From the NCBI RefSeq assembly GCF_963921235.1, contig NC_086108.1, positions 69,628,001-69,692,000 on the forward strand: a DNA stretch of 64,000 nucleotides. Reading direction: 5' to 3'. Under the pieces are notes generated by a model. It worked only from the letters and a program-made list of their open reading frames with translations. It was not told the origin of the DNA and searched no databases. The stretch is from Mobula hypostoma (lineage: Eukaryota). The position numbers and the translations under genes are program-made. Shown piece after piece: positions 11,730-64,000 of the stretch (position 1 is its first letter; each line of letters begins with the position of its first letter).

Positions 11730-13140
11730 ATTCCAGATACCAGATTGTTTAATCTCATTTTCAGTGCACAAGCATAGAAGGGAACAAAATAATTGTTACT
11801 CAGATCTAAACCAGCTCAAAAAAACTCAATAAGATAAAGAGCACAATAAATAATTTAAAAAACACAATAAATATAAATACATAAGATAGCTTATCTACAT
11901 ACATAGGTTGATTGTATGTCCATAAAGTGACACTAGGCAGAGGAGCGTCTGTACATAAGGTGACTGGCAGGAAATGTTAAAGAAGTGGATATTGGGGATG
12001 TGGAGGGGTGGATTAGTGGGTTGAAGTGTTGATCAGCCTTATGGTCTGGGGAAAGTAACTGTTTTTGAGTCTCGTGGTCCTGATGGATGATACACAGCCT
12101 TCTCCCTGAAGGGAGCGGCACAAACAGTGTATGAGCAGGGTGGGTGGGATTCTTCATGATGTTACTGGCTCTCTTCCACCACTTTTCTGTATACACATCC
12201 TTGATGGCGGGTAACACACACAAAATGCTGGAGGAACTCAGCATGCCAGGTAGCATCTATGGAAAAAAGTACAATCGATGTTTCAGGCTGAGACCTTTCG
12301 GCAGGACTTTATTATCAAAGTTACCACATAAAATCTTGAGATTTGTTTTCCTGATGGTGGGTAGGCTGATACCGGTGGTGTGTTGGGCAGTTTTGACTTC
12401 CCGTTGCAAAGCATTCCTGTCTACCATGGCGCAGTTTCCGTAACATGCAGTGATGCAACTTGTTAGGAGGTTTTCTACTGTGCATCTGTAGAATGATATG
12501 AGTATAGATGCACATGGCCCAGCTCTCTGAGCATCCTCAGAAAGCAGGAGGGAGCTTTGGTGAGCTTTCCTGATTGTGTAGAATGTTTTCAGGGACAATA
12601 AGAGATTATGCGAGACGTGCACTTGCAGGAGTTTATAACTAGTCACAGTTCCACCTCTGTGTCGCTGATGTAGAGGTGTGAGTGCTGCAAGTTCTCCTGA
12701 AGCTGATAACCATCTCCTTCATCATAACATTGAGGAAGAGGTTACTTGCGCACACCAGGTCTGAAGCTCCTCCATCTCCTCTCTGTATTCCGTTTCATTG
12801 CTGTTGGCGATGAGCTCCACCACTGTCATGTCATCACTGAACTTGACAACGTGAGTACTCAGGTGTTTGGCCGTGCAGTCAGGTGTGAGCTGAGTGTACA
12901 GCAATCGGCTCCGCGCAGAGCCCTGGGGGGGGAGGGGGGGCACACATGTTGAGGATGATGGAGAGGGAGGAGAGGCAGTGCATCCTGACTATCTGAGACC
13001 CGTAGGTAGGAAGTCCAACATCCAGTTGCACAGTGGTGTACTTAGACCGAGGAGTACGAGTTTGCTTAGCAAGGTCTATGGGATAATGGCATTGAATGCT
13101 GAACTGAAATCCAGAAACAGCATTCTGACAGAAGTGTCAC
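11730..13140 (-). mobile_element. Rex1/Babar LINE fragment interrupted by a Penelope-derived insert
   Basis: KFSDDMTVVELI (RT) and HTLFVPLPSGRRL (C-terminus). Confidence 0.85.
12214..12308 (-). mobile_element. Penelope-like pLTR fragment with mutated hammerhead core
   Basis: cacacacaaaatgctggaggaactcagc...gtttcaggctgagacctttcggcaggact. Confidence 0.8.
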
Positions 13141-16830: not shown

Positions 16831-17913
16831 CAGATCCTGATTAGAATATTTTATAGATTAGTTTCTAATCCAGGCAATTATAAACTAAGAGAAGCAGACA
16901 AAATAAGAAGCACTTTATATATTTTTTTACCCTCCCCTATTTTGCCAATTTCTCCTTTCAGAACAGAAACATTGAGAAGTGGTCATTCCATGCTCACGGC
17001 CATCCTGATAACTAAGCTTGTTCTTGCTGCCTGCTGCTTTATCTCATGACGTACTTCTGCTCAGAGTCACTTGCTCAGGAGAAAGAGGTTATAAATGTCA
17101 TGACCATGACTGATCACAAATTCTAAAGGTCAAAACTGAGAAATCTAAACCAATATAGAACAATTTCAATGTTTATTATTGATTAGGAAAGAGATCCTTA
17201 GCCAATCCCCCCACTTTCTTAACCTAAATATGTGAAAGCTGATAAAAACAAAGTGGTCTGTCACCACTAATTTTAACCATCATCCCTTTTTTGTATTCCT
17301 ATCATAGATTTTCTATTTCATTCCCTCCACGTTCCTCAGTCTCTATAACATCTTGAGACATTATAAACATTTTTAAGTTCCAATGAAAGGTCATTGATCT
17401 GAAATTTCAACGTTTCTTTTCTCCACAGATTCTACCTGACCTGCTGAGCAGTTTCAGCATTTTCAGTTTTCATTTTAAATTTTGAACGTGCCTTTATTAG
17501 CACCCTGGCTGACAGCAGCTAACTGAGCCTGTAACAGCATGAAAATGAGGGTCCTGTCCTAAGTACTCATTTGATTTACAAATTGTGACTTCAAACTAAG
17601 CCCTGTACAGACTATGACTTAATTATTTGCCAATACAATAATCAGAAATTATTAAAAACTGCCACCTTCCAGGAGCATTGTGGAATTCTCTGCCCAATAA
17701 TGCGATGGAGGTTACCCAGTAAATATGTTTAAGACAAGGTTGGAGAGCTTTTTGCATGGTAGGGGAATTAGGGTTATGGGGAAAAGGCAGGTAGGTGGAG
17801 ATGAATCCATGGCGAGATCAGCCATGATCTTCTTGAATGGTGGAGCAGGCTCGATGGGCCACATGGCCTACTCCTACTCCTATTTCTTATGTTCTTATAT
17901 ATTAGATTAGATT

Positions 17914-29274: not shown

Positions 29275-30935
29275 CTTAATTGAAGGGCCATCGCAGAAAT
29301 ATTTAAGTCATCCTTAGCAATAGGTGAGGTACCGGAGGTTTCGAGAATAGCCAATGTTATTCCACTGTTCAAGATAGGCTCCATAAATAAACCAGAAAAT
29401 TATAGGCTGGTGAGCTTGACATCAGTAGTGCGAAAATTATTACAGGGTATTCTGAGGGACTGGGTATATAGGTATTTGGATAGACATTGACTGATTAAGG
29501 ATAGTCAGCATGGCTTTGTGCTTGGTAAGTCATATCTGACTAATAAGAGTTTTTCAAGAAAGTTACCAGGAAAGCTGATGAAGGCAAGGCAGTGGATGTT
29601 ATCTACATGGACTTTAGTAAGGTATTGGACAAGGTTGGTTGAGAAAGTCCAGTCACTCAGCATTCAAGGTGAGGTAGTAAATTGGGTTGGATGTTAGCAT
29701 TGTGGGAGAAGCCAGAGAGTGGTAGTAGATGGTTGCCTCTCTGAATGGAGGCCTGTGACTAATGGTGTGCTGCAGAGATCAGTGCTGGGTCCTTTGTTGT
29801 TTGTCATCTATATCAACAATCTAGATAATAACGTGGTTAAACGCATCAGCACATTTGCAGATGACACCAAGATTGGGGGTGTAGTGGACAGTGAGGAAGA
29901 CTGTCATGGCTTGCAGCAGGATCTGGACCAGCTGGAAAAAGCTGAGGAATGGCAGATGGAATTTAATGCAGATAAGTGCGAGATATTGCACTTTGGTAAG
30001 ACCAGCCAGGGTAGGTCTCACACAGTGAGCAGTAAGGCACAGAGGAGTGTGACAGAAAAAAAGGATCTGGGAACAAAGGTTCACAATTTGTTGAAAGTGG
30101 CATCACAGGTAGATAGGGTCATAAAGAAAGCTTCTGACACACTGGCTTTCATAAATCAAAGAGATGGAATGTTATGCTTAAGTCACATTGGTGAGGCCTA
30201 ATTTGGAGTACTGTGTGCAGTTTTGGTCACCTACCTGCAGGAAAGATGTAAATAAGGTTGAACGGGTACAGAGGAATTTACATGGATGTTCACAAACAAA
30301 AGAAAATCTGCAGGTGCTGGAAATCCAAACAACACACACAAAATGCTGGAGATTAATCTACTGCTCAGTTTTTTTTCTCCAGTCCTCCTGAAGGGTTTCG
30401 GCCCGAAATGTCGACTGTACTTGTTTCCATAGGCGCTGCATAGCCTGCTGAATTCCTCCAGCAGTTTGTGTGTGTTGCTTTACATGGACGTTGCCAGGTC
30501 TGGAGGAACTGAGTTATAAGGAAAGACTGAATAGGTTAGGACTTTAGAAGGTTAGAAGATTGAGAGGAGATTTGATAGAGGTATACAAACTTATAAGGGG
30601 TATAGACAGGGTAAATGCAAGCTGGGTTTTTTCCACTGAGGCTGGTGGGACTACAACCAGAGGTCATGGGTTAAGGGTGAAAGGTGAAAAGTTAAAGGTG
30701 GAACATGAGGGGAAACTTCTTCACTCTGAGAGTCCTGAGAGCATGAAATGAGCTGCCAGTGAAAGTGGTTCATGCAAGCTGGATTTCAATTTTTAAGAGG
30801 TTTGGATAGGTATATGGATATTAGGGGTATGGAGGGCTCTGTGGTCCTGGTGCAGGTTGATGGGAGTAGGCAATCTAAATGGTTCAGCATGACTAGATGG
30901 GCCAAAGGGCCTGTTTCTGTACTGTACTTTTCTAT
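29275..30935 (+). mobile_element. CR1 LINE RT to 3' end, with a Penelope-derived insert
   Basis: [48 protein letters not shown]. Confidence 0.95.
30291..30478. mobile_element. Penelope-like inverted pLTR mini-insertion with 14-bp TSD
   Basis: Two oppositely oriented pLTR ends (caacacacacaaaatgctggag vs ctccagcagtttgtgtgtgttg). TSD tttacatggatgtt (30277-30290) and tttacatggacgtt (30479-30492). Confidence 0.85.
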
Positions 30936-32160: not shown

Positions 32161-32299
32161 CATTGCTCCTAGATGCTTAATGCTGTATTACCCCACATAA
32201 GCTAAGGATATGCTGACACACTGAAAGTGATGGTAAGTAAAGGATATATTCTAAGAAGCACAAGAGGCGTGGAATAGAAAAAGAAGCGTTCAAAGGTGA

Positions 32300-32390
32300 T
32301 TCACACAAAATGCTGGAGGAACTCAGCAGGTCAAGCAACATCTATGGAAATGAATATACAATCAATGTCTCGGGCCAAGACCCTTCATTC
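32300..32390 (-). mobile_element. Penelope-like pLTR fragment
   Basis: cacacaaaatgctggaggaactcagcaggtcaagcaacatctatggaaa...cgggccaagacccttca. Confidence 0.8.
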
Positions 32391-33379
32391 GCCCATCTTC
32401 AATGGTGATTCTCCGGTTATGACCTGATAGACAAGATGGAAATAAATGTGTTCTATCCTTCTCATCTGGAAAAGGATGAAGGAGGATGCTATAGTCAATC
32501 ATTATTTCACAGGATATTATTAGTGTTTTTGACAACAACCATTTTGGCAACATGGCAGGAACAGGAGATTAGAGGTATAGAACCAAGGCACTTTGGGAAA
32601 GGAAGAAAGAAGTGGGAAACTGTATGTTCAAAAACTTGAGAGGAAAGGGGCTTGGATATGGGTCAATAATTTAAGGATGAGGGCTGACAACAACAGGTTT
32701 GAAGAAGACAGCCAAGGAAAGAAAATCATTCACAATATGAGTTGAATGTTGTAGAATGGAAACCCCCATGGTTAGCAATTTGATGGGAACAATATCGGCT
32801 TAGAAAGGGAACAAGATGGGTCAGGAATAAACAATGCAATTCAGGGCTGTAGGCACATTGTGGGTTTGTACTTTGTCTGATAAGCTAAAATATGAGAAGA
32901 AAATGCCTTTTGATGATATACTTTTTAATCTTAGTTCCAAAGAAACAAATTTCTTACAACAAGAGTGGTAGGAATGGGCCAAATTTAGCTTGTAATACAG
33001 AAATTCATCATAGACTAGTATGTACATTTTCAAGTCTCTACATTTTAAACATCTGATTTGTAAAAGAATATGCAATCTGGACACATTAAATTCCCATCTA
33101 TGTTCACTGTGACTTAAAAAGGCTGGCAACAGAGTACACTATGTGATGTGGTCAAATAACAGTATCTATTTAGTGCCAGTACAATTTCAATCTGCTCATA
33201 GAACAGTACATCACAGAAACAGGCCGTTCGGCCCACGATGTTGTACCGAATGATTATTCAGTACTGTTTTGGAAGGAGAAAAACCACCCTTCCCCACTCC
33301 CCATTTATTTATTGGAGTATTTGTCGGAAAGGATGGGTGGGCAAGCAGGAAGTGCCCTATACAAATAATGAGAAAATAG

Positions 33380-34320
33380 CGAAGTACGACGACTGGGGGT
33401 CAAATGTATTATCACTCAAAACAGAAGATGTTAATTTATAAGGAACTGCATTACAAGTGAACACATGTCGTCCCCTTAAATCGGAGGCCTTAATTTGCAA
33501 GTTACATCTGCCAAACATGTTCTCCATACAATTTAAACCCTGTTGGTTCATCCCCCACCCTCCCAGCTGCACTACAACAGCCGCCTTCGCAGTACCAGCC
33601 CATCCGCAGCTGAATCCAGCCTCTGGGGGCTGCCGAAGGCCGGAGGCCAGTCGGCCTCGGCCGGGTAGGCCCAGCACAAACTTAAAAACAAGCCCCAAAC
33701 TTTCCGTAAACTACGCCCGCAGGTTTGTTTCCATGTTAATCGTTTGCCTTTGCCACACAGGCCCAATGTAATGCGAACGTTATGCAGTCAAATGTAAGGG
33801 TTCTCAAGGGCCAGAGCCGGTTTTCGCAATCCAGTGATTTATCTTATAGATATCGTCCTAAACGCATTAACAGTACGAACATTTTGAGTGAGATCGCCCT
33901 GCTTTTACCTGAGTGAGTGTAAAGTGCCCCGCCATGCTGGTTCCTTCACTTTAGCCCATCATGCACTGAAAAAAGTTCGCCAGTCCAGGGCTACAAATAA
34001 AACCTGGCACCGGAATTCCAATGGCGTACACTTCCTGGACTGATTTATCATAGTACTGTTTGCCGGCAAATACTCGGACAGACACATTTCCTTTCATGCC
34101 TGTAGCAATCACTAAATAAAACTGGTAAGCAAATTCAAAGCCCAAGCAGAGTGGAGAATTAGCTGTCTGAAAGGCAGAGAGTAAAGGTGATGGGGAGCCG
34201 TAGGATGAAATCCTGCAATTATCAGTGCGAAGATACTTAACGTTAAAAAAAATGAACAATTCTCGCAATCTGGACACTTTTAAAAAAAACGTTTTTAAAT
34301 CTACAGATGCCGCCAAATGG
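33380..34320. promoter_or_regulatory. EPS15 CpG-rich promoter and first-exon region
   Basis: Repeat-free, CpG-enriched segment around the putative exon 1. Contains an ETS-like ACTTCCTG (~34030) and AATGGCG (~34020). Confidence 0.6.
33909..33935 (-). CDS. EPS15: EPS15 coding exon 1 (MAGHFTLTQ)
   Basis: Minus strand reads agcATGGCGGGGCACTTTACACTCACTCAG|gtaaaa. It resembles the vertebrate EPS15 exon-1 peptide ending LTQ at a phase-0 donor, lies in a CpG-rich zone, and is head-to-head with OSBPL9 as in mammals. Only 9 codons; exon 2 was not found in the window. Confidence 0.8.
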
Positions 34321-35574: not shown

Positions 35575-36165
35575 CAGACAAGCAGGATCTCACGTGGTCT
35601 GTACACACCAGCTGTCTGGTGAAAAAGTACAACAGCACCTCTTTCACCTCAGGTTGAGGAAGTTTGGTATGGGCCCCCAAATCCCAAGCACTTTCTACAG
35701 GGGCACAATTAAGAGCATCCTGACTGGCTGCATCACTGCCTGGTATGGGAACTGTACCTCCCTTAATTGCAGGATTCTGCAGAGCGGTGCGGACAGCCCT
35801 GCGCATCTGTACCTGTGAACTTCCCGTGATTCAGGACATTTACAAGGACAGCTGTGTAAAAAGTGCCGTAGGATCATTGGGGACCTGAGTCACCCCAACC
35901 ACAATCTAATCCAGCTGCTACCATCTGGAAAACGGTACCGCAGCATAAAAGCCAGGACCAACAGACTTCGGGACAGCTTCTTCCACCAGGCCATCAGACT
36001 GATTAACTCATGCTGATTTGAGTGTATTTCTATGTTACATTGACTGTTCTATTTATTATAAATTACTATGATTGTATATTGCACATTTAGACAGATGTAA
36101 CATAAAGAATTTTATTCCTCATATAAGTGAAGGATGTAAGAAATATAAGTCAATTCAATTCAATT
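35575..36165 (+). mobile_element. Rex1/Babar 3' fragment
   Basis: QQHLFHLRLRKFG..FYRGTIKSILTGCITAWYGNC, with a (caatt)n tail. Confidence 0.9.
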
Positions 36166-38189
36166 CTGGTGACATAAAGAGAAATAGGTAGGTTAAAGGA
36201 TTAGCAAGATAGAGGCCAATAGAATATGATGTGGAAGAATGTTAGGTTATACATTTCAGAAAAATAAAAAGTAATAAAATATTTCTGTACATAAAGTTCG
36301 TACACAGTTACAGAAAGTAATTAGAAAGGCTAATGGAATCTTAGCCTTTATGGCACGGAGTAAGGGCTTTAATGTTAGGGAAGTTTGATGCAACCTTACA
36401 GAGCAATGGTGAGACCACACGTGGAATACTGTTTTATGATGATTGATGAACTTGCATTCCGGACTGTACAGAAAGTGTTTACAAGTTGATTCCACGGATG
36501 AAATTGTCACATGAAGAAAGGACGTGGCATAATGGAATTTTTAAAATTGCAAGATAATCTTATTGACACATCATGAGAAACAGCATCCCCTCTGTGGACT
36601 CTGTCTAAACTTCTTGCTGCCTCAGGGAAAACAGCTAGCATAACCAAAGACCCCACTCCAGGCATTCTATCTTCTCTGCTCTCCCATCAGACAGAAGATA
36701 CAAGTACCTGAAAGCATGTACCATTGGACTCATGGACAGCTTCTGTCCTGCTGTTATCAGGCTTGTGAATGGGCCTCTTGTGCATAAGATGGACTCTTGA
36801 CCTCACAATCTATCTTATTATGATCTTGTTCTTTACTGTTTACCTGCACTGCACTTTCTCTATCGCTTTTACATTTTATTCTGCCTTCTTATTGATTTAC
36901 CTTGTTCTACCTCAGTGCACTGTGTAATAATTTGATCTATATGAACAGCTTTTCACTCTATTTTGATACATGTGACAATAAACCAAGAACAATAAACATA
37001 CAAGATTTTTTTGGGGGGAGGTGGTTGGCAAAATGGAGTGGAGAGTATGTTTCCCTCTAGAGTGTACCTTGAAGTCAAAGGTGTAGTTTTGGAATAAGAG
37101 ATTACCCATTTTTCAGAAGATGAAAATCAGTGTAATTCTCCATCAGTGGTGTCATTGACAATATGTGCAGTGGAAATAGACAGGTACTTGACAAAACGTT
37201 CAAGAGAGCAGAAAATGTGTTGAAGACAAGGTTGAATAAACCATGATTTCTTTTGAACGGTGGATCCAGGGCCAAGTGGCCTACTCCTGCTCCATTTCCT
37301 ATCTTTATACAGTAATGTATCAATAGCATGATCAAAGTTGAAATTGTTTTCTTTTCAAGTTTCTGATTTTTGATTCTGTCTGTGCACACCCTCTTTTCAC
37401 CAGTTAGCAACTACATATTTAGAATTCATCTAAATCTCTAGATAATGTAACCTTTGTGCTTTTGAAGTTCAATGACAGACCAGCTCCTGCAGTCTCTTCT
37501 TTGATATTCACAAGTGCACTTTTGGCCAATAGATCAAAGTAGTGAAGTGATAAGCATTATCAAGAGCACCAAATTAAGAGACTCCAAATGATAATATACT
37601 TAGGAACTTACATTTTGCTACCAAAATAAATCTGAAATAACAAACGTGTATCAGTAATGATGACAATGTAATCAATGGATTTGCATTTTAAAATGATAAC
37701 TAGTGAACTTTAGATAAGAAATTTGCTACACTTACCTGATTTGAACCAGAATATTTAAGTGCAAATTTATACCCACAAATATATTTCTTACAACATCCTT
37801 ATGTACAAGTAATGCCAGAACACTGCAATGCAGTTGATTCTTATCAAAGCACTGAAATGGCCTTGCATCAAAGCCACTGTAAAAAGCAGCATTACTAATA
37901 AAACGAGATGGACCACCAACCATAATCCTAAACTTCGAACAGGGCACACTCTGCAATATACTCCTTTCCAGCTGCCACAAAACAAAGTAAGCAACAAAGA
38001 ATGTAATTATTTCATAGAAACATAACTTTCAGACTCTTAATGATGTTAGAGTCACACACAATTGTGAATAAATCGCCCTGGGAACCTCAACACTGATGTC
38101 TCCAGATTTCCTTCTTTCAGTTGAAATTTAATTTGTTCATATTCAATTCTGAAGCAGCATTACAGGTAGCCAAAGTTTAGAATATACAA

Positions 38190-39050
38190 CAATGCCCATT
38201 AATGGGGACGGTCTGTGGTGAGTGGTGTTCCACCAGAATCAGTGCTTAGCCTCTTTTATTTGTTATACTAACAAATAGGATGAAAGTAGAAGTGATCTGA
38301 TTAGTAAGGCTGCTGATGAAAAGAAAATTGATCGTTTTGGATATTGAAGAAGGTTTTCAAAGGACAGAATAAGGTATATATAAACCAGGTGGAAATGTGG
38401 GCAGAGAAATGGAGGTAGAATTTCACCCAGACAAGTGTGAGGATATATTCTGAGAAGTCAAATACAAGAGGAAGGCTTACCGTGAAATGGAAAGACCCTT
38501 AGGACCAGTGGTGTAGAGAGGAATTCTGGGGTGGAAGTTCAGCTCCCTGAAAGTGGCAATACAAGTTGATAAGGTGGGAAGGAAAGGATACAGCATGCCT
38601 GCCTTAATCAGTCAGGGTATTGAGTATAAAAGATGGGAAGTCACATTCCAGCTGTATAACGTTCTCTTCACTGTGTTACATGAAAGATTTTGAAGCTTTG
38701 GAGATGGTGATGAAAAGATTTACAAGGATATCGACTGTATTATCTATAACGGAGAGGTTGGACAAATTTGGGTTGTTTTCACTGGAAGCTCTGGGGGTTG
38801 AGCTGACAAAGAGACAAAATTGATTGATAGGATTGACAGCCTTTTTTCCAGGTGGAAATGTCAAATACTAGTGGGCATAAGTTTAACATGAAATGGGGAA
38901 TGTTCAAAAAAAGATTTGCAAGTCAACTTTTTTTTTTCCTTATAGATTAGGAGGTGCCCTGGAATGGGCTGTTAGGGAAGATGATGTAAGCAAAAACAGC
39001 AGCACCATTTAGGAGGCATTCAGACAGACACTTGAACAGAAAGAACATAG
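38190..39050 (+). mobile_element. Old CR1 RT and 3' fragment
   Basis: gctgctgatgaaaagaaaattg (AADEKKI, decayed FADDTKI) and KRFTRI..ERLDKFGLFSLE. Confidence 0.75.
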
Positions 39051-39054
39051 AGAG

Positions 39055-39722
39055 CAACATACACAAAATGCTAGAGGAACTCAGCAGGCCAGGCAGCATC
39101 CATGGAAAAAAGTAGTCGACATTTCAGAAAGTAGTCGATGTTTTGGAAGTAATGAAAAAATAGACAGAAAATAGAGATAGGAATCTCTGCAAGCAGATGA
39201 GATAGGTAGATTGGCATCACAGCTGGGCCTGATATGTCGTTTGTGGCTTCCTCTACTGTCACAATGAGACCACATTCAGGTTGGAGGAGCAACACCTCAT
39301 ATTCTGAATGAATAGCCTCCAACTCGATGGCATAAACATCGATTTCTCTAATTTTCTGTCATTTTCCACCCTTCCCCTTCTCTTTTTTTTATTCCGCATT
39401 CTGGCTCTCCTCTTACCCCTTTGCTTCTCCTCACTTGCCCATCACCATGGTACACACTACTATCAGATTCTTCCTTCAGCCCTTTTCCACCTTTCACCTC
39501 CCAGCTTCTCACTTCATCCCTCCTCCTTCCTCCCACCTTCCCTCTCACCTGGCTTCACATATCACCTGCCAACATGTACTCATCCCTCCCTCCACTCACC
39601 TTCATATTCCGACTTCTACCCACTTCCTTTCCAGTCTTGAAGGATCTTGACCAAAACATCAACTGTTTATTCTTCTCCATATACGTTGCCTGACATGCTG
39701 AGTTCCACCAATATTTTGTGGT
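39055..39722 (+). mobile_element. Penelope-like element: inverted 5' pLTR piece, GIY-YIG C-terminus and 3' pLTR
   Basis: FRLEEQHLIF*MNSLQLDGINIDFSNF (~39275-39355), followed by a pyrimidine-rich UTR and pLTR end. An inverted copy of that end lies at 39055-39145. Confidence 0.85.
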
Positions 39723-40254
39723 ATATTTCTCTATTTGTACTGTTCTATGTTCCATCCCTGGACACTGCTTCGAATCGTTATTTTCAGGTGACCTATAACA
39801 CTGGAATCAAGTACAATACTAGATTCAACTTGAATTTATCAATCCAAGTTTGCCCACAAGTACAATCTGCTCAGTTTTGACCGTTATCTGATTCAAAGAA
39901 GTTTCTGAAACTATGACAGATGTTTACTTCTACCTAGCAGTACAGCATTTTGAATTTTGTTCTGTAAAATTCTTCTGTATTGACAGGAAAGTTAGAGAAG
40001 CAAATGAGAGGAACTAATGGAAAAGAAAAGGAGCTTGTGCTGATAAAATCAGGTATGTACCAAAAAGACAAAATAATCTTTCTTTTTAAGGCATTTATCT
40101 TGGGTTGCATCAGTGAAATTCTAAGGGAGGAATACATTATTGGTGATGTTGCTATTTAGATAAGAGAGAGAAACAAAATTTCAGGTCAATGGGCTATTGT
40201 CATGAAAAAGACTCAAGACCAAGGTTATTAGCTTGAGATAACAAAGATATTTAT

Positions 40255-41010
40255 ACTTTATACTTTATTGTCGCCAAACAATTAGTACTAGAACATACGT
40301 TCATCACAGCGATATTTGAATCTGCGCTTCACACTCCCTGGATTACAAATATTAAATATTAAAATAGTTAAAATTGGTAAATATTAAAAATTTAAATTAT
40401 AAATCATAAATAGAAAATAGAAAAATGGGAAGTAAGGTAATGCAAAAAAACCGAGAGGCAGGTCCAGATATTTGGAGGGTATGGCCCAGATCTGGGTCAG
40501 GATCCGTTCAGCAGTCTTATCACAGTTGGAAAGAAGCTGTTCCCAAATCTGGCCATTTGAGTCTTCAAGCTCCTGAACCTTCTCCCAGAAGGAAGAGGGA
40601 CAAAAAGTCTTTTGGCTGGGTGGGTCGTGTCCTTAATTATCCTGGCAGCACTTCTCCGACTGCGTGCAGTGTAAAGTGAGTCCACAGATGGAAGATTGGT
40701 TTCTGTGATGTGCTGCGCCATGTTCACGATCTTCTGCAGCTTCTTTCAGTCTTGGACAGGACAACTTCCATGCCAGGTTGTGATGCACCCTAGAAGAACG
40801 CTTTCTACGGTGCATCTATAAAAATTGGTGAGGGTTTTAGGGGACAGGCCAAATTTCTTTAGTTTTCTCAGGAAGTAAAGGCGCTGGTGGGCCTTCTTGG
40901 CACTCTGCTTGGTTGGACCAAGTCAGGTCATTTGTGATATTAACCCCGAGGAACTTAAAGTTTTTGACCCGTTCCACTTGCGCACCACTGATGTAAATTG
41001 GGTCATGCGG
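40255..41010 (-). mobile_element. Rex1/Babar 3' fragment
   Basis: AARIIKDTTHPAKRLFVPLPSGRRFRSLKTQMARFGNSFFP. Confidence 0.9.
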
Positions 41011-41019
41011 TCCACTATT

Positions 41020-41285
41020 GGGAGTTCACTGGGAGTTCCCAGCTCCCTCGTGGTTCCGCCTCCTTCTTCTACTACCCATTGTTTTCAAGGGCTATGATGT
41101 CAATGCTTCCCCTACCCCACCCCTTTGTCTTTCAAATTACTGGTCTTTCAACTGAAGCTACAAGCATTCTTCAAATCCTTCCCCATCTTTCATTCTTCAG
41201 TCCTGACGAAGGGTTCAGGCCCGAAACGTCAACTCATCGTTTCTAACTGATGCTGCCTGACCTGCTGAGTTCATCCAGCGTACTT
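41020..41285 (+). mobile_element. Penelope-like pLTR fragment
   Basis: Pyrimidine-rich UTR followed by cagtcctgacgaagggttcaggcccgaaacgtc...gatgctgcctgacctgctgagttcatccagc. Confidence 0.8.
41199..41234 (+). ncRNA. Minimal type-I hammerhead ribozyme motif (Penelope-associated)
   Basis: CUGACGA core (41203-41209), extra A, stem II GGGU-UCAG-GCCC, GAAAC, palindromic ACGU helix III, GUC cleavage triplet (41228-41230). Stem I is AGUC/AACU with one mismatch. Confidence 0.75.
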
Positions 41286-41534
41286 AACATTTTGGTAGAC
41301 TTCAAGCGTACAATGCTTTAAGTAAAAAATAGTTTAAGAAATAGACCAGCAATAAGCCATTCAATCCTTCAAGTTTGTCCCATTTCCATTTCCCCAAATT
41401 CCACTTGTATCCAAAATCGATCATACAGAATTTTGAGCACAATCAATGACAGAGCCTCCGCAATCATCCAGGATGTAAATTTCCAAAGATTCACTGCACT
41501 TCAGTCAAAAATAACTTGTCCTTTGAGAGTCATA

Positions 41535-43372
41535 GAAACCATAGAAAAACTACAGCACAGAAACAGGCCTTTTGGCCCTTCTTGGCTGTGCCAAACCATT
41601 TTCTGCCTAGTCCCACTGACCTGCACACGGACTATATCCCTCCATACACCTCCCATCCATGTATCTGTCCAATTTATTCTTAAATGTTAAAAAAGAACCC
41701 GCATTTACCACCTCATCTGGCAGCTCATTCCATACTCTCACCACTCTCTGTGTGAAGAAGCCCCCACTAATGCTCCCTTTAAATTTTTCCCCCTTCACCC
41801 TTAACCCATGTCCTCTGGTTTTTTTCTCCCCTTGCCTCAGTGGAAAAAGCCTGCTTGCATTCACTCTAGCTATACCCATCATAGTTTTATATACCTCTAT
41901 CAAATCTCCCCTCATTGTCCTACGCTCCAGGGAATAAAGTCCTAACCTATTCAACCTTTCTCTGTAACTGAGTTTCTCAAGTCCTGGCAACATCCTTGTA
42001 AACCTTCTCTGCACTCTTTCAACCTTATTAATATCCTTCCTGTAATTTGGTGACCAAAACTGAACACAATACTCCAGATTCGGCCTCACCAATGCCTTAT
42101 ACAACCTCATCATAACATTCCAGTTCTTATACTCAGTACTTTGATTAATAAAGGCCAATGTACCAAAAGCTCTCTTTACGACCCTATCTACCTGTGACGC
42201 CACTGTTAGGGAACTTTGTATCTGTATTCCCAGATTCTTCTGTTCTACTGCACTCCTCAGTGCCTTACCATTTACCCTGTATGTTCTACCTTAGTTTGTC
42301 CTTCCAAAGTGCAATACCTCACACTTGTCAGTATTAAACTCCATCTGCCATTTTTCATCCCATTTTTCCAGCTAGTCCAAGTCCTTCTGCAGGCTTTGAA
42401 AACCTTCCTCACTGTCCACTACACCTCCAATCTTTGTATCATCAGCAAATTTGCTAATCCAATTTACCACATTATCATCCAGATCATTGATATAGATGAC
42501 AAATAACAATGGACCCAGCACTGATCCCTGTGGCACACCACTAGTCACAGGCCTCCACTCTGAGAAGCAATTCTCTACTACCACTCTTTGGCTTCTTCCA
42601 TTGAGCCAATGTCTAATCCAATCTACCACCTCTCCATGTATACGTAGCGACTGAATTTTCCTCACTAACCTCCCATGCGGGACCTTGTCAAAGGCCTTAC
42701 TGAAGTCCATGCCTTCCCTTCATCCACTTTCCTGGTAACCTCCTCGAAAAACTCCAATAGATTGGTCAAACATGACCTACCATGCACAAAGCCATGTTGA
42801 CTCTCCCTAATAAGTCCCTGTCCATCCAAATGCTTGTAGATTCTGTCCCTTAGTACTCCCTCCAATAACTTACCCACTACTAACGTCAAAGTTACCAGCC
42901 TATAATTTCCCGGATTACTCTTCGATTCTTTTTTAAACAACAGAACAACATGAGCCATTCTCCAGTCCTCCGGCATCTCACCCAAAGACACTGACATTTT
43001 AAATATATCTGCCAGGGCCCCTGCAATTTCAACACTAGTCTCCTTCAAGGTCCGAGAGAATACCCTGTCAGGTCCTGGGGATTTATCCACTTTAATTTGC
43101 CTCAAGATAGCAAGCACCTCCTCCTTTTCAATCTGTACAGTTTCCATGATCTCACTACTTGTTTCCCTTAATTCCATAGACTTCATGCCAGTTTCCTTAG
43201 TAAATACAGATGTAAAAAACCCATTTAAGATCTCCCCCATTTCTTTTGGTTCTGCACATGGCCAACCACTCTGCTCTTCAAGAGGACCAATTTTATCCCT
43301 TACAATCCTTTTACTCTTAATATACCTGTAAAAGCTCTTTGGATTATCCTTCATGTTGACTGCCAAGGCAAT
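41535..43372 (-). mobile_element. CR1 LINE, young 5'-truncated copy with nearly complete RT
   Basis: Three long frames (42665-43381, 42372-42710, 41607-42203): [49 protein letters not shown]. Confidence 0.97.
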
Positions 43373-44199
43373 ACATATCATATTAATATACGTATACTTA
43401 TGACTCCAGTTATCAATGAAGGGAAGGCTTGGAATGATACCTGCATGGTTTACATGGACAGTTTATAGAAATAGGAGAATTAGTAGCAATTAGAGGAATG
43501 CTCACTCAATCTCTTGGTTTCATTGACAAGGTATTAAGAAACGCTTGATCATCATGATGGAATAGAAAGTCAGCCTTGAAAATGATTTTGTAGACAGATA
43601 GTAAAAGGTCAGCTCTGATTATCCAGAGAAAGAGAGCTCAAGTTTCAGGGTGGTATTTGAAAAATCAGTAAATAAAAAATGTTGTTTATCACTAAAAAAA
43701 AAATTGTGTTGAGGTTGCTATTTTGTCCTACAAACCCAAATGATTCAAAAACAAAAAGTTACTTTTAAGAAATAAAACATTTGTACCTAGTGCAAAGTTC
43801 CATAATACCAGAAGTTGACTAAAGATCGGGTTTCAGGGCAGAGTTAGTATAACAAGACACTCAGTCACAACTGCAGGATTTCAAGGAAGTTCATCACCGC
43901 TTCAACTGCAAATGTGGAAATATTAATTTCTGAAATCTCCTCAGCTCACAATATATCATATGATAGCCAATCAGACAAATACACTATGTTTATACATTGT
44001 AATTGCTAATTACATGAATTTGGCTTTTCTGAATTGATACAAGTGGTTAACTTGCTTTCTGTTTGGAAGCAGATGATGTTACCTATTTAGATATTGGAGC
44101 CATTAACAGTTTTAACTGAGAGTAAATGGAATTAAAGAGGCATAAGAGAGAAGCAGGCCAAAGTTTATTGGAAGGTGACATGAACAGGGATGATAACAG

Positions 44200-44782
44200 A
44201 ACAACAATGGCTGGTGTTCCTGGGGGGCAAATGGAAGGTGCAAGGTAAATACATCCCAACGATGAAGAAATATTCTAAAGGGAGGATGAGGCAGCCGTGG
44301 CTGACAAGTCAAAGACAGCATTAAAGCAAAAGGGAGAGAAGATAATATAGCAAAATTGAGTGGGAAGTTAAAGGATTGGGAAGCTTTTAAAAAAAAAATC
44401 TACAGAAGGCAACTAAAAAATCCATAAGGAGAGGAAAGATGAAATGTTAAGGTAAGCTAACCAATAATATCAAAGAAGATAGCATAAGTTTTTTACAGAT
44501 ATGTGTAGAGTAATGAGAGGTGAGAATGGATATCGGACCACTGGAAATTGATGTGGAGGCACAAAAATGATCTTTCATGAATCACCAAACTTTGGAATGG
44601 TTACAGAAGACAGAAAATTGCAAATGTTGATCCAACCTTTAAGAAGGAAGGAAAGCAGAAGAAAGGAAATTTTAGGCCAGTTAGCCTGACCAGTGTTGGG
44701 GATGCTGGAATCTATTATTAAAGATGCAGTTTTGGAATACCTGGAGGTACATGATAAAGTAGACAAAAGTTAGCATGGTTTC
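44200..44782 (+). mobile_element. CR1 fragment cut off by a Gypsy LTR
   Basis: cagccgtggctgaca (QPWLT) and tctattattaaagatgcagttttggaatacctggag. Ends at agcatggtttc, immediately before the LTR's TG. Confidence 0.75.
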
Positions 44783-45019
44783 TGTTCTATTTTGTATTTT
44801 CAAAGCATTGAACTAAGTCAAAGGAAAACACGGGAGTCCAAGAATGCAGGTTTTACTTCATCTTTAAGTGAGATGCACACATATCATGTGGTAGTGTAAT
44901 GACACTTGCAATTAACATGCTTTTACACATAACCCATAATTATTTAATTGAACAAGAATGCTTAAATACATATACACACATGATTACTCAATTATTACTG
45001 AAATATTAAATACACAACA
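44783..45019 (-). repeat. Gypsy LTR (3' LTR)
   Basis: TGTT...AACA termini, adjacent to a purine-biased tract on the minus strand and to gag-pol remnants. Confidence 0.65.
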
Positions 45020-47010
45020 CTTTTGCCAGCTTAGCTATAAACCAACTCAATAGAGAATGCATCCCAACTATAGACACTGTATATTATAATGTAAATACTA
45101 TATTCAGACAGCCACAGCATAGTAAATTTTAAATTGTCCCATTCAGGCCAAAGATTTAATCACTGTGGAGGTTTTCTTACTCATGTGGGTAATGTCTTTC
45201 CTGACAAGGGAGGTCTGTCTGCTTGGCAGGTGAGAATTGTGGCTGTAAAACAAATATAGATTCTGGGAATTCCTCTGTGATTGTAGGAGTTGTCTCTGAG
45301 ACTGCAGAAAGTGGTTCTGACAGCTCTGGACACTTCCCACTTATTTTCCCTCTCTGAATCTACTTTAATCCCTTTCTTTTTCGTTCTCACATTCCTTCAC
45401 TCTTTCACATTCATATTCTGTCTCTCCAACTCTTCCCTCTCATTTCTTCTTCTAGTTGGTGCATCTTGATTTTGGGAAGGTCCATTTAGTTCACTGGAGT
45501 ATTCTATTATAATCCTTCTATTGCTCCCTTTATGATCCGATCTCTCCTTTTGGTTTCCTCATCCACATCATTTGCTGAATCCTTTGTTTTCGTATCTCCA
45601 GTGACTCAGGAGGCAGTTGAGGCATCATTCAGTACACTTCTTAATTGATTTTCAATTGGCTTCATTGCAGAGGATGTGGCATGCAAATTGTGGATGGATG
45701 CCAATCAAGATGTAGTCTCAGCCCATCATGCCCCACAATGCTGGTCCTCCCGTTTTTACCACATACAAGTTCAATGTGGCTTGTTGGTTGTTGTATTTTA
45801 CTGTTACAGATGTCTTTCCCACAGGAGTTCTCTTTTCTTCAGCGCAAGTTCTTAGTTGAATATCTGCAGGCTTCAGTTTCGTATGTTTGAAATGCTGTGT
45901 GGACTCAGTTTGTGGAATGACTGAAACACCAGCCACTGTCCAATTCCATTTTAATGAATTTTCCATTCACTTCTAATGCAAGCCATTTTGCTTGTCTCAT
46001 TAGTTTTCAAATTGTACATCTCTAGATTACATATTTCTGTGTCACTCTCATCATTATCAGATTTTTCATCAACTGCATACAGATTAGTTTTATTTCAAAA
46101 CTGACTTCATCTTTTTCTCTTCTGAGCAGTCCATTTATTTTTGTCTGCACAGCATGCTGTTTGTACGTGTACTTACTTTGTTGCATTTTCTGCATTTAAA
46201 CCTGCAATTGTTTAGTGAATGGGAACCCCTGCCACAATGGTAACACAATTTGTTCAGCTGGGCTGGTTTCTGTTTAGAAGCTGCAATTTTATTCATGCTC
46301 ACTTTCATTCCTGATTGCTACTCAATTGCATCTTTTTCTGCTATTTCCATTGATACTGTGATTTCGACTGCCTTTTTAAAATGCAAGTTATGCTTTAGTT
46401 AGCAGTTTTTGAATGCTTTCTTTTAAGATTTCACAAACTAAATCATCTTAGTGTAACAAGCCCATTACTGAACTAACAATACTCAGACACTCTCTTCAAT
46501 TCAGTCACATACACTGAAATAGACACCTTTTCTTTTTGATTCCACTTATGAAACCTAAAGTGTTCTGCAATCAACAATGGTTTTGGTTCTAAATGTTCCT
46601 GCATCACTTTAACAAAGTCAGGAAAACTCATTTCTGCAGGTTTGGTAGGAACTGTCAAACTTTGGAGCAAACTGTATGCCTTTAAATCCAATGCTCTTAG
46701 CAAAATTGGCACTGGCTTCTCATTAGCCATTTCATTTGCTTCAGAAATACTGTTCCAATAGCTCAGTGTACATGAGCCAATTACCCATTGTTTAACCAAA
46801 CTTGTCAATCTTTCCGACATACCCAGCCATTTCTGCCTTTTTTTAAATGATTATTCTCACCCAGTACCCACTTTGAACACTGAATGCTTCCGTTTACAGC
46901 ATTTTTATTTTTTTTAAAGTTGATCTTGTCTTCCCTTGTGAAGAATATGTGCTGCACTGCCTTTTTTAAAAAAAAACCCAACTGTCTTGCTGTACATGTT
47001 GGACTTCCGA
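44783..47010 (-). mobile_element. Internally deleted Gypsy LTR retrotransposon (gag, CCHC knuckle, protease)
   Basis: Gag-like AYSLLQSLTVPTKPAE..HLEPKPLLIAEHFRFHK..YVTELK, knuckle CYHCGRGSHSLNNC (46204-46245), protease-like VNGKFIKMELDSG (~45935-45975). No RT or 5' LTR seen. Confidence 0.85.
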
Positions 47011-51200: not shown

Positions 51201-52319
51201 AACCCAATTCTGATATGGGTCTTTACTGTGGACTGAGTGGGAAGGGGGCAGGGAGAGGAATTGTGGTTGGAAGAAGGGAAGGGAGAGGGGAGGAAGTGGA
51301 ATGCACCAGAGAAACATTCTGTAATGATCAATAAAGCAATTATTTGGAATCAAATGACCTTGCCTGGTGTCTCAGGTCTGGGTGTATCTGAACCCATGCC
51401 ATTCCCCACCTGGCACTCCTTCTCTACCACCTGTCCCACGCCCCTCCCACATTTCTTCATCCTCACCATTCCCAATATCCTTTGTTCCTGCTAGATTTAC
51501 AAACTCACTCTCTGCTCCATGTTAACAAATACAGTGATAGGCAAAAATTTTTGGTACCCTAGCTATAAACACAATACTCTATAAAATGTTGCTCCTTTAA
51601 GATAGGAGGCATTTTAATTTTCCATCTCAAAATATAAAGTCTATGGTCAACACTTTGAGGAAGAATTCCTCAAAATGTGAGCATAATCTTTGTATTTTTT
51701 TAAAGGTAGAGGTAGATACATAAGTGATAGGAAAATGTATTAAAGTGTACTGCTGGTAATAGGAATGTGGAGTAATGGCTAAATTAGATATCAGTGATTT
51801 AATTAAAATTTTAAAAAGTAGTCTTGGTGGATCGATTGGCCTACAACTGCTCCAATTCTGAATGTGTCTGACTTTCATTTAAAATACAGTTCCCTCAACA
51901 GAGAAAAACATTCCATAATGCTTCAGAATAGCAGCACATTAAAATATGGCATGGAGCCACATTCAGATAACCAAACATTTCGTCAAAGCATTCTATCTAA
52001 AGAAAAACTTGTGCTAGAAATCCAAAATAAAAAGACAAAATGCTGTAAATACAGAGCAAGTGAGGCAGGAAATTTTGGACAGAGATAAACAAGAACATTT
52101 CATGTTGATGACCTTTCAATGACTAGCTGTGAAATGTTAGACATGATACAAGTTTAGAATTACAAGGGTGAGATAGGAGCAGAGAGAACAAGATGACAGT
52201 CCAGGAGAGATTGAATGACAAATGGTGATGAAGATGAAGGAAATTGGTAATGCCATTGAAATTATATCTAGAGCAAGTGCAGGAGGTACAGTATATCCTT
52301 TATCTTAGTACCAAACTCT

Positions 52320-61247: not shown

Positions 61248-61754
61248 ATGAATCCATGACATCAATTCATTCAATAAACATATGACTTATTTATATTATC
61301 TATGTAAGTACAGTACAAATTCACTTTCTTAATTGCCCATTCCTATTTGCCATAAGGAGGTGTTGGTTAACCACCTTAATGGCTTGTGGGAGTACTCACA
61401 CGAGTCATTGAGTAAGGAGTTTTAAAATCTGGACTTGCCAGGATGATGGAAAGACAATATAATTCCAAGTCAGGGGTGAGTGTGATTAGTAAAGGATCTT
61501 GTATATGGTGGTAATACCTCAACTGTCTCTGCCTGAACAAATCACTTAATGAAGAGGAATTATTGGTAGGGCTTGCCAGGCGATGTATCAAATACATTCT
61601 GAAATTCACCTGTGAAACAACTATTTGATTCCATTTATTACACTTTAACACCATTCAGTGTTACATATAACTTAATATTTAACTTTTTATGCATGTGCAA
61701 CGTTTGTCAGTTTAGTCCTCTGAACCTTCATACGTTTTAAAGAAAGACGATCTG

Positions 61755-61880
61755 GTGCTGAGGAAGGGTCTCGGCCCGCAGCGTCGACTCTATTCCTTTC
61801 CATAGATGCTGCCTGATCTGCTGAGTTCCTCCAGCATTTTCTATGTGTTACTCTGAATTTTCAGCCTCTGCAGAATCTTT
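61755..61880 (+). mobile_element. Penelope-like pLTR end, upstream of the OSBPL9 promoter
   Basis: ctgaggaagggtctcggcccgcagcgtcgact...gatgctgcctgatctgctgagttcctccagcatttt. Confidence 0.8.
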
Positions 61881-62099: not shown

Positions 62100-62950
62100 A
62101 TCACGAGAATAAGCTAAATTAATACGGAGTTGGCGTCACCGTAAATAGTAAGCGTGTAAACCTGGCCACTTTAAAAAAAAGCTCTCTGTCAACGATAAAA
62201 TCTGCGTCTCCTCCCCTCGGCTCAGTTCTTTTCCCAATGAGCAGGCGGCGCTGACGTAGTGGTCGGTTTGTTATCATTCCCTGAAGATGGCGTCGATCAT
62301 GGAAGGGCCGCTTAGCAAGTGGACCAACGTTATGAAAGGATGGCAGTACCGCTGGTTCGTGCTTGACTACAATGCGGGCCTACTCTCTTACTACACGGTG
62401 AGTGGATTGGAGGTGAATTAGTGGCCTCCGGGGTGAGGGAATGGAGTGGAAGCCGTAGCTCGCTTGTCACCATGCAGGTTTTTCTCTATCCCCACCCGTT
62501 CGCCTGTACGGCGGACTGCATTCGTGTATCACACCAACTTAGACGGCAGGGCGAGGAAGGGCCCAGCCCCCGGTGGGATGCAACGTGTGCGTGAGAGACG
62601 GCGCAGTTGTCCAATCGCACTCCAAGTTCGTGAACATGGCTTGTCAACTAAAAAAGGCTAGCAAATGAACATACAGTTAATGGGCGGGACTTCTACTTTA
62701 AAGGGTCAGGCTGGTAGGTGAGAGTAGGTGAAATAGCTTTAGGATAGTCGAGTGGCCTGTAAGGTGGTGGCTTTGTGGAACAAAAGTACGAGTTTTTTCC
62801 CCCACGGCTGTGCAAAATGCTCTGCAGAGCACGGTAAATCCACACTATCAGGTAGAAAAACGATAGGTACACTTTGCAAAAGAATGTAAAACATTCTAAT
62901 GTTGTCTGCTGTCCATTGAAGAGTGTCCGTTGCACCGAAATATTTGTTAA
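62100..62950. promoter_or_regulatory. OSBPL9 CpG-island promoter and first-exon region
   Basis: High CpG density against a CpG-depleted background. CCAAT at 62234-62238, CRE-like TGACGTA at 62252-62258, YY1-type AAGATGGCG at 62284-62292. Confidence 0.75.
62287..62397 (+). CDS. OSBPL9: OSBPL9 (oxysterol-binding protein-related protein 9) coding exon 1, start of the PH domain
   Basis: Translates [37 protein letters not shown], the recognisable ORP9 N-terminus. Strong Kozak context (aagATGg), 111 nt, phase-0 donor ACG|gtgagt, and it lies in a CpG-rich island. Confidence 0.97.
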
Positions 62951-63532
62951 ACCCTGTTTCCTTTGTTTATAAATGTTCGATGCATTTCACTAATTCTACA
63001 ATCAAAAACTTTGCTAACTATTTATGACAAAAGTATTGTTATATAACTTAGTGTTATATACTTGAACATTTATCTAATTTGTAACAAAATTCATTACATG
63101 TGGACCTGGAATGGGAAAAAAATGCCCTCAGACATTTCAGTAAATTCACGCCATTTTGAAATGTTAAAAAAGAAGTGATTTCATTTTTCTGGTATTGCTG
63201 CTATCCTTGTGTAACATGCAGTCACAATACTGGATAGTTAAGAGACAAATAGCCTTGTTAGCCTTATTTTAAATGAATCCACTTTACTGCTCTTCAGCAT
63301 TGATTAAATTGGTAGGTTGATCCTTTTTCATTAGATGATGTTAGGTGAACATGATTTTAGAATGCCTATCTCTTCACTCGGTGGTGAATCTTTGGAGTTC
63401 TTTATTCTTGTGAATTTGGTTGACAGGTTGGAGATATGTCTCTACCAAAGGAGGTGAAAGGTTATTCTTCCCTCCACTAGCCTGCAGGTCACCCTAAGGC
63501 AAGATGTAGCTCCTGCTTAGCATCCCTGCCGG

Positions 63533-64000
63533 GCAACACATACAAAATGCTGGAGGAACTCAGTAGGCCAGGCAGCATCTATGGAAAAAAGTACAGTTGA
63601 TGTTTCAGGCCGAAACCCTTCGGCAGGACTGGAGAAAAAAGCTGAGGAGCAGACTTGAAAGGTGGGGGGGGGGGAGGGGAGAGAGAAATGTCAGATGATA
63701 AGTGAAACCTGCAGGAGGTGGGATGAAGCAAAGAGCTAGGAAGTTAATTGGTGAAAGAGACAGAAGGCCATAGAAGGGGCAGGGGAGCACCAGTGGGAGG
63801 CGATGGTCGGGCAACAAGATAACATGAGAGAGGGATAAGGGGATGGCAAATAGTGAAGGTGGTGGGGGGAGGGGGTTGGAGGTATTACTGGAAGTTTGAG
63901 AAATTGATGTTCATGCCATCAGGTTGGAGGCTATCCCAACGGAATTTCCCGTCCCCTTGTCCCTCTCTCATGTTATCTCCTTGCCTGCCCATCACCTCCC
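63533..64000 (-). mobile_element. Penelope-like element in OSBPL9 intron 1, with an orientation switch at ~63942
   Basis: Minus strand LQPDGMNINFSNFQ* (GIY-YIG end) plus pLTR. 63945-64000 is the reverse complement of ~63795-63850. Confidence 0.85.

What the first reader, a model, noticed from the sequence alone, without database searches (positions are those of the whole stretch)
41199..41234. Intact-core minimal hammerhead ribozyme inside an abundant short repeat
Seen: AGUC-CUGACGA-A-GGGU(UCAG)GCCC-GAAAC-GUC-AACU, containing all hammerhead core nucleotides, with helix III reduced to the palindrome ACGU. Known: Penelope-like elements carry minimal type-I hammerheads in their pLTRs that cleave as dimers through such palindromes. 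Inference: this is the best-preserved copy in the window and may self-cleave after 41230 when paired with another copy, although the innermost stem-I pair is a C-A mismatch.
Basis: partly seen in the sequence, partly recalled or inferred. Interest (0 to 1): 0.7.

Follow-up and report, generated by a model that had tools for sequence, protein, structure and literature searches.

The report
Decayed Penelope-element minimal hammerhead copy
This is a real copy of the small self-cutting RNA motif that Penelope-like jumping genes are already known to carry, left behind in a short dead fragment of such an element, with a mismatch right at its cutting site that probably silences it.

Summary
The motif is present letter for letter at 41199-41234. 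It is rare by chance (2-3 of 400 random windows) and is the only one of 10 window copies with all 11 core bases. It sits in a ~250-bp fragment (about 41037-41284) of a dispersed repeat. Two sister copies carry, upstream, the C-terminal end of an RT/GIY-YIG protein, and three show head-to-head arrangements, so this is the pseudo-LTR end of a Penelope-like element. The architecture matches the minimal hammerhead of Cervera and De la Pena 2014. Self-cleavage here is unlikely. G is the common letter at 41231 (5 of 9 sister copies; 41-51% of contig depth), so A looks like CpG decay. In a dimer the mismatch stays on this copy's own cleavage site. No intact partner lies nearby, and no transcription is shown. 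Only its catalytic half is intact. Earlier notes of this scan report the same kind in this genome and in others. Ordinary: a new copy of a known kind.

The parts
41037..41284 (+). 5'-truncated terminal (pseudo-LTR) fragment of a Penelope-like element, no coding sequence left; boundaries approximate
   Evidence: Contig depth falls to near zero at 41020-41039 and to zero from 41300; longest laid pieces start at 41037 and end at 41284. No target-site duplication found.
41037..41198 (+). Pyrimidine-rich 3'UTR-like segment of this subfamily
   Evidence: 71% C+T; not alignable above chance to the two ORF-bearing copies (343 and 262 of 500 shuffles score as high); joined to the hammerhead in contigs of 279-280 nt with 9 other letters and 3 gaps.
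41199..41202 (+). Stem I, 5' arm (AGUC), intact
41203..41210 (+). Core C3-A9 (CUGACGA) plus the single unpaired base before stem II
   Evidence: the extra base between 9 and 10.1 is a listed trait of PLE minimal hammerheads (PMC4209133)
41211..41222 (+). Stem II (GGGU/GCCC, G10.1-C11.1) with 4-nt loop
   Evidence: loop base 41217 is C in 93-96% of laid depth
41223..41230 (+). G12-A13-A14, palindromic helix III ACGU (41226-41229, no loop) and C17; predicted cut after 41230
   Evidence: site by standard hammerhead numbering, not observed
41231..41234 (+). Stem I, 3' arm (AACU); A41231 breaks the pair next to the cut
   Evidence: G at this place in 5 of 9 sister copies and 41-51% of depth in 4 runs
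41249..41279 (+). Most conserved family segment, small hairpin before the element end
   Evidence: 90% identical over 31 nt to copies 32342(-) and 39100(-); highest contig depth; folds as a hairpin
39218..39355 (+). Sister copy: C-terminal remnant of the RT/GIY-YIG protein, one internal stop, about 280 nt upstream of its hammerhead relic (39638-39720)
63884..63946 (-). Sister copy: last codons of the same ORF, upstream of the hammerhead copy at 63633-63528
   Evidence: 82% identical over 51 nt to 39312-39362, E 9e-9; translation
12206..12311 (-). Sister copy, core 10 of 11 (A6C)
17375..17469 (+). Older, divergent sister copy
30293..30483 (.). Sister copy 30378-30483(+) with an inverted end piece 30293-30351(-) that carries a longer tail
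32293..32391 (-). Sister copy, core 8 of 11
39050..39720 (.). Head-to-head pair: 39150-39050(-) and 39218-39720(+)
61752..61856 (+). Sister copy, core 9 of 11, G at 1.1
63528..63633 (-). Sister copy, core 10 of 11 (A6C); closest to 41199 by blastn (78% over 101 nt, E 8e-17)

Best explanation
[quoted passage not shown] In the parent element two copies on one tandem transcript would pair through the palindrome, each core cutting the other copy after C17, probably slowly and with help from the element's protein (inferred from papers, not shown here). This copy was inserted without ORF or partner and then drifted: a probable CpG G-to-A change broke the pair next to its own cut site. It is most likely inert at this locus. 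Shown: sequence, family membership, ORF remnant on two sister copies, inverted structures. Inferred: CpG origin of the mismatch, loss of activity, lack of transcription.
For: Family of 9 strong copies. Peptide upstream of copy 39638 finds 36 proteins; one of them (P0021, RT motifs followed by a GIY-YIG-like end by eye) finds 52 proteins of 734-958 aa, 40 with RVT_1 and 15 with GIY-YIG. A profile of those 52 hits the window only at 39215-39349, at profile positions 800-845 of 847 (iE 0.016). Head-to-head copies and a longer optional tail are PLE traits (PMC8557442 passages). All four sequence traits listed for PLE minimal hammerheads but covariation are met (PMC4209133). G at 41231 is common; window CpG observed/expected 0.26. 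Nearest same-strand copies: 1.5 kb (core 6 of 11), 10.7 kb, 20.5 kb. Folding favours non-hammerhead states.
Against: The 41199 subfamily is tied to the PLE ORF only through the shared hammerhead-plus-tail; its own upstream part does not align to the ORF-bearing copies. Pfam support for the near hits is thin: GIY-YIG in 2 of 21 scanned, both under the cut-off, 12 with no family, 7 with unrelated host domains. Covariation among 10 window copies is not above shuffles (208 of 500). About half of the laid depth also has A at 41231, so A may be shared by many copies. The folding energies ignore tertiary contacts and had no active-ribozyme control. The 500-fold figure is a review statement on trans-acting constructs and not specific to C-A.
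Confidence: 0.8

Rival explanations
1. Same origin, but this copy still self-cleaves after 41230 at a meaningful rate when paired with another copy or helped by a protein.
For: Core 11 of 11, stem II 4 of 4, Watson-Crick palindrome, three outer stem-I pairs. C-A can form a wobble-like pair (own knowledge). An anole PLE hammerhead cleaved once the protein was added (PMC11167929).
Against: Mismatch at the cut-site pair persists with any partner that has C2.1. The 36-mer folds into UGACG/CGUCA with probability 0.87-1.0; stem II probability drops to 0.08 and 0.01 in longer context. No good partner within 10 kb on the same strand; no exon seen around it; RNA ends at the cut site were not found even for the active anole element.
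Confidence: 0.1
2. The copy works as a trans-acting enzyme strand: its intact 5' arm, core and stem II pair with another family RNA through the palindrome and cut that RNA, not itself.
For: With natural copy 30378 as substrate all 5 stem-I pairs, 4 helix-III pairs and stem II form.
Against: That fold is -12.8 kcal/mol against -24.9 for the best dimer and about -11 for each monomer; only 9 intermolecular pairs hold it; no evidence that the locus is transcribed; dimers of intact motifs already cleave weakly in cis (PMC4209133).
Confidence: 0.04
3. The fragment is a non-autonomous SINE-like element or retrozyme monomer that took over the PLE end, not a truncated PLE.
For: Its upstream 160 nt differ from the ORF-bearing copies. 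Non-LTR retrozymes related to PLE pLTRs were reported in one chondrichthyan, consensus about 363 bp, with solo monomers (bioRxiv 10.64898/2026.07.22.740005).
Against: No tandem array at the element; sister copies end in ORF codons and start at varied points, as 5' truncation predicts.
Confidence: 0.05
4. Chance resemblance to a hammerhead.
For: Short motif; no Rfam hit; covariation not significant.
Against: 2-3 of 400 controls; sister copies keep the same layout at the place where PLEs are known to carry it.
Confidence: 0.01

Closest known systems
Minimal type-I hammerheads (min-HHR) of metazoan Penelope-like elements (Cervera and De la Pena 2014, PMC4209133; read parts 1-2 of 4: abstract, results, discussion, start of methods; supplements not seen)
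   Same: No loop 3, palindromic 15.2-16.2, extra base between 9 and 10.1, G10.1-C11.1, short stem I, mostly single dispersed copies from truncated elements, some close pairs on opposite strands.
   Different: Stem II is 4 bp (7-8 bp in their Schistosoma families); 1.1-2.1 pair broken in this copy; cartilaginous fishes are not named in the parts read (teleosts, coelacanth, Xenopus, reptiles are).
PAc (Poseidon) hammerhead of Anolis carolinensis (Frangieh et al. 2024, PMC11167929; read parts 1-2 of 4)
   Same: Hammerhead in the pLTR, followed by a stem-loop and an optional tail at the element end.
   Different: PAc is a full, active element; its ribozyme cleaved only with the protein and was not needed for insertion in vitro. 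This copy has no ORF. P0021 shows a C-x4-C-x2-C motif between RT and endonuclease (by eye), which points to Neptune or Nematis, not Poseidon.
Non-LTR retrozymes (Li, Clavereau, Pollet 2026, bioRxiv 10.64898/2026.07.22.740005; read part 1 of 5, section 12 and passages; supplements not seen)
   Same: Non-coding, type-I hammerhead, related to PLE pLTRs, present in one chondrichthyan.
   Different: Defined by tandem units each with a complete motif; this copy is solo.
Canonical type-I hammerheads (Schistosoma Sm-alpha, newt satellite, intronic vertebrate motifs; PMC6155905 passages)
   Same: Same catalytic core and topology.
   Different: 6-bp stem I with loop-loop tertiary contacts and a small helix III loop; absent here; no Rfam match.

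Membership tests
PLE minimal hammerhead | Conserved core CUGANGA, GAAA, UH | tested here: met
   11 of 11
PLE minimal hammerhead | Helix III reduced to a palindrome, no loop | tested here: met
   ACGU 41226-41229; 4 of 4 pairs in a dimer
PLE minimal hammerhead | Unpaired base between 9 and 10.1; G10.1-C11.1 pair | tested here: met
   A41210; G41211-C41222
PLE minimal hammerhead | Stem I of 4-5 bp closed next to the core | tested here: not met
   Not met in this copy (1.1-2.1 is A/C, 3 pairs left); met in sister copies 12311 and 30378. Read as decay of a member.
PLE minimal hammerhead | Family-wide covariation in stems | tested here: inconclusive
   10 degenerate copies, one misaligned: 77% of cells pair (19-51% when slid), 3 pairs with two-sided change, 33 of 500 shuffles as high; score 208 of 500
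PLE minimal hammerhead | Cleavage as a dimer | not testable with these tools
   Needs a bench assay; only contigs were available
Penelope-like element (EN+) | Motif lies in the terminal repeat downstream of an RT plus C-terminal GIY-YIG ORF | tested here: met
   Met for sister copies 39638 and 63633; for 41199 only through shared terminal sequence
Penelope-like element (EN+) | This copy itself joined to ORF sequence | tested here: not met
   No ORF remnant upstream of 41199; consistent with 5' truncation
Penelope-like element (EN+) | 5' truncation, inverted head-to-head copies, optional 30-40 bp tail | tested here: met
   Seen in sister copies at 30293-30483, 39050-39720, 63528-64000; traits from PMC8557442 passages
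Neptune/Nematis clade of PLEs | CX2-5CxxC linker between RT and endonuclease; RT phylogeny | tested here: inconclusive
   Motif seen by eye in database protein P0021, not in the window; no tree built
Non-LTR retrozyme | Tandem repeats with a complete hammerhead in each unit | tested here: not met
   No such array in 36000-46000 (13 short rows)
Canonical type-I hammerhead (Rfam) | Match to an Rfam hammerhead model | tested here: not met
   No hammerhead family among 8 matches at E<=5

The most novel reading that the evidence does not exclude
Dispersed relic copies like this one, with an intact catalytic half and a broken substrate half, act in trans: when caught in host transcripts they pair through the palindrome with RNA of younger family members and cut it, so a genome full of dead PLE ends would form a pool of ribozymes that restrains the element.
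Probability: 0.04. Interest if true: 0.65.

Novelty: new member of a known kind. Interest (0 to 1): 0.1.

Why it matters
As found, little: thousands of such motifs per genome were described in 2014, and this is one decayed copy. It would matter if relic copies were shown to cut RNA in cells, in cis or in trans, because the in vivo role of PLE hammerheads is still open (low activity in vitro, not needed for insertion in the anole system). Searches for a paper on elasmobranch PLE hammerheads found none (0 papers; 1 paper, where 'shark' describes the shape; 5 listings, not read), but the 2026 preprint includes one chondrichthyan, and the library lacks most subscription journals.

Tried and rejected
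No whole genome is held, so no genome-wide count. Family DNA patterns found nothing in viral contigs, metagenome contigs or prokaryote genomes, as expected for a vertebrate repeat. Rfam: no hammerhead. Sequencing runs: no RNA holder listed; 8 runs with shares 0.10-0.15; 4 of the 8 were laid, all contigs, RNA status a guess, so they show neither strand, level nor ends; no start/end pile-up was listed and none could be. No other letter reached 10% at any core position, but laying needs close word matches, so this leans towards the reference. The 41-residue remnant found nothing in the word-indexed search and only a chance Pfam hit. A regular expression for the zinc-finger linker also matches the endonuclease's own cysteines and was not used as evidence. 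A whole-window six-frame Pfam scan was not completed, so exons on the minus strand or away from CpG islands could be missed and 'intergenic' is only probable. Lunse et al. 2016 on dimer cleavage is not held; I saw only its citation and a review's summary (PMC6765202 passages). Pairwise scores for copies 17375, 39150, 39638 and 52117 rest on shaky alignments; 52117 was left out of the majority line. Rejected: retrozyme array, chance, domesticated intronic hammerhead (no tertiary-contact anatomy, decays like its family).

Full report
Observation. The 36 bases are as written: stem I arm 41199-41202, core 41203-41209, one unpaired A, a 4-bp stem II with a 4-nt loop, GAAA at 41223-41226, the palindrome ACGU at 41226-41229, C17 at 41230, and AACU. 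The bare core pattern is no rarer than chance (44 of 100 shuffles; 37 of 200 with a loose descriptor). The full layout is: one hit in the real window, 3 of 400 and 2 of 400 in Markov controls (descriptor written after seeing the motif). Rfam has no matching model at E<=5.

The repeat. blastn with 41101-41320 finds 7 other places. A profile finds 9 copies at E<1e-10, one of them not in the training set, plus weak ones; the best hit on the reversed window has E 0.31. Among 10 copies scored, 41199 alone has 11 of 11 core bases; the others have 6-10. Four public runs (4 of 8 listed, contigs only, two coded organisms) lay 593-1182 contigs each on 40960-41540 and outline the element at about 41037-41284. 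The window is vertebrate: it is rich in LINE and DNA-transposon remnants and holds a PH-domain first exon. That it is a ray or shark comes from my recall of this repeat and from earlier scan notes, not from a test here.

Link to Penelope-like elements. Upstream of copy 39638(+) lies a 41-residue remnant with one stop (39233-39355); copy 63633(-) has its last codons (82% over 51 nt). The remnant finds 36 proteins. Of 21 scanned in Pfam, 2 show weak GIY-YIG, 12 nothing, 7 unrelated host domains with the peptide attached. One hit, P0021, reads as RT end, cysteine linker and GIY-YIG-like end (by eye) and finds 52 proteins of 734-958 aa, 40 with RVT_1 and 15 with GIY-YIG (two rechecked). A profile of these 52 hits the window once, at 39215-39349, on its last 50 positions (iE 0.016). 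So the hammerhead repeat follows the stop of an RT/GIY-YIG ORF by about 250-280 nt. Head-to-head copies at 30293-30483, 39050-39720 and 63528-64000 and a longer optional tail match the PLE insertion pattern (PMC8557442, passages). Limit: the 41199 copy has no ORF remnant, and its upstream 160 nt do not align to those copies above chance; it belongs by its terminal 100 nt (78% identity, E 8e-17).

How it works. From PMC4209133 (parts 1-2): such motifs cannot close helix III alone, show no cleavage as monomers and low cleavage as dimers. From PMC11167929 (parts 1-2): the anole PLE motif cleaved only with the element's protein, was not needed for insertion in vitro, and RNA-seq ends at the site were not found. 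In a dimer each molecule's 5' arm, core and stem II cut the other molecule (topology, my inference; pair check). For this copy the catalytic half is whole and the substrate half is not: with natural copy 30378 as substrate all stem-I pairs form, while in the reverse direction and in the homodimer the cut-site pair is broken. G at 41231 occurs in 5 of 9 sister copies (A in 3, T in 1) and in 41-51% of depth, 28-50 contigs per run. It lies in a CpG, in a window with CpG observed/expected 0.26, so G-to-A decay is the likely origin. A review passage gives 500-fold or more loss for a mismatch at this position (PMC3138052). Folding also disfavours the active state: the 36-mer prefers UGACG/CGUCA (-11.1 against -4.7 kcal/mol; pair probabilities 0.87-1.0), stem II falls to 0.08 and 0.01 in longer context, and the 111-nt region is not unusually stable (z -1.55). 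These energies lack tertiary terms and an active control, so they weigh little. The nearest same-strand copies are 1.5 kb away (core 6 of 11), 10.7 kb and 20.5 kb. The only exon seen is 21 kb downstream and is a first coding exon, so the copy is probably intergenic; the exon scan was incomplete.

Against my reading. About half of the laid depth has A at 41231, though laying favours letters like the reference. Covariation among the 10 copies is not above shuffles. No activity or expression data exist either way.

Comparison and verdict. It works like, and by sequence traits belongs to, the PLE minimal hammerheads of 2014, as a decayed member with stem I broken. It is not a tandem retrozyme and not a canonical hammerhead. 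Earlier notes of this scan reach the same class: 30 of 178 notes in this genome fit 'hammerhead', and others come from other genomes; these are unchecked and were seen after my reading was fixed. New member of a known kind, interest 0.1. The boldest reading left open, relic copies cutting family RNA in trans, I put at 0.04.

Noticed in passing
window 12281-12304(-), 63603-63626(-), and decayed 30378-30483(+): Two sister copies have the core CUGCCGA (A6C) and a third has C at the same place; they share downstream sequence, so a subfamily with a C6 core seems to have amplified. Natural C6 hammerheads prefer Mn2+ and are slow in Mg2+ (PMC7151607, abstract and results). A genome-wide count would test whether cleavage is needed for PLE spread.
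   Followed up: partly
window 62287-62397(+): First coding exon of a PH-domain lipid-transfer gene in a CpG island, followed by a GT donor; closest solved chains PLEKHA3, ORP11, CERT. The name OSBPL9 is recalled, not from a call.
   Followed up: partly
window 63795-64000: The long hairpin that drew weak microRNA matches in Rfam is an inverted duplicate of PLE 3'UTR sequence (86% over 57 nt), not a microRNA.
   Followed up: yes
window 33501-34000: CpG-island-like stretch (GC 0.51, CpG o/e 0.71) with no exon recognised; it could be a promoter or young insertion near the element.
   Followed up: no
window 17375-17469(+), 52033-52117(-): Older copies with a different stem II sequence and, in 17375, a U-A pair at the innermost stem I position by eye; possible compensated variants of an older PLE family.
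   Followed up: partly
protein hits (P0003, P0005, P0009, P0017, P0024): Several database proteins are host genes with the PLE endonuclease tail peptide attached at one end; probably gene-prediction or assembly chimeras, or exonised copies.
   Followed up: no
window 40440-41017 and 41540-43460: The fragment is flanked by LINE remnants: one ends at 41017, and a CR1-like copy on the minus strand follows (class name recalled).
   Followed up: no
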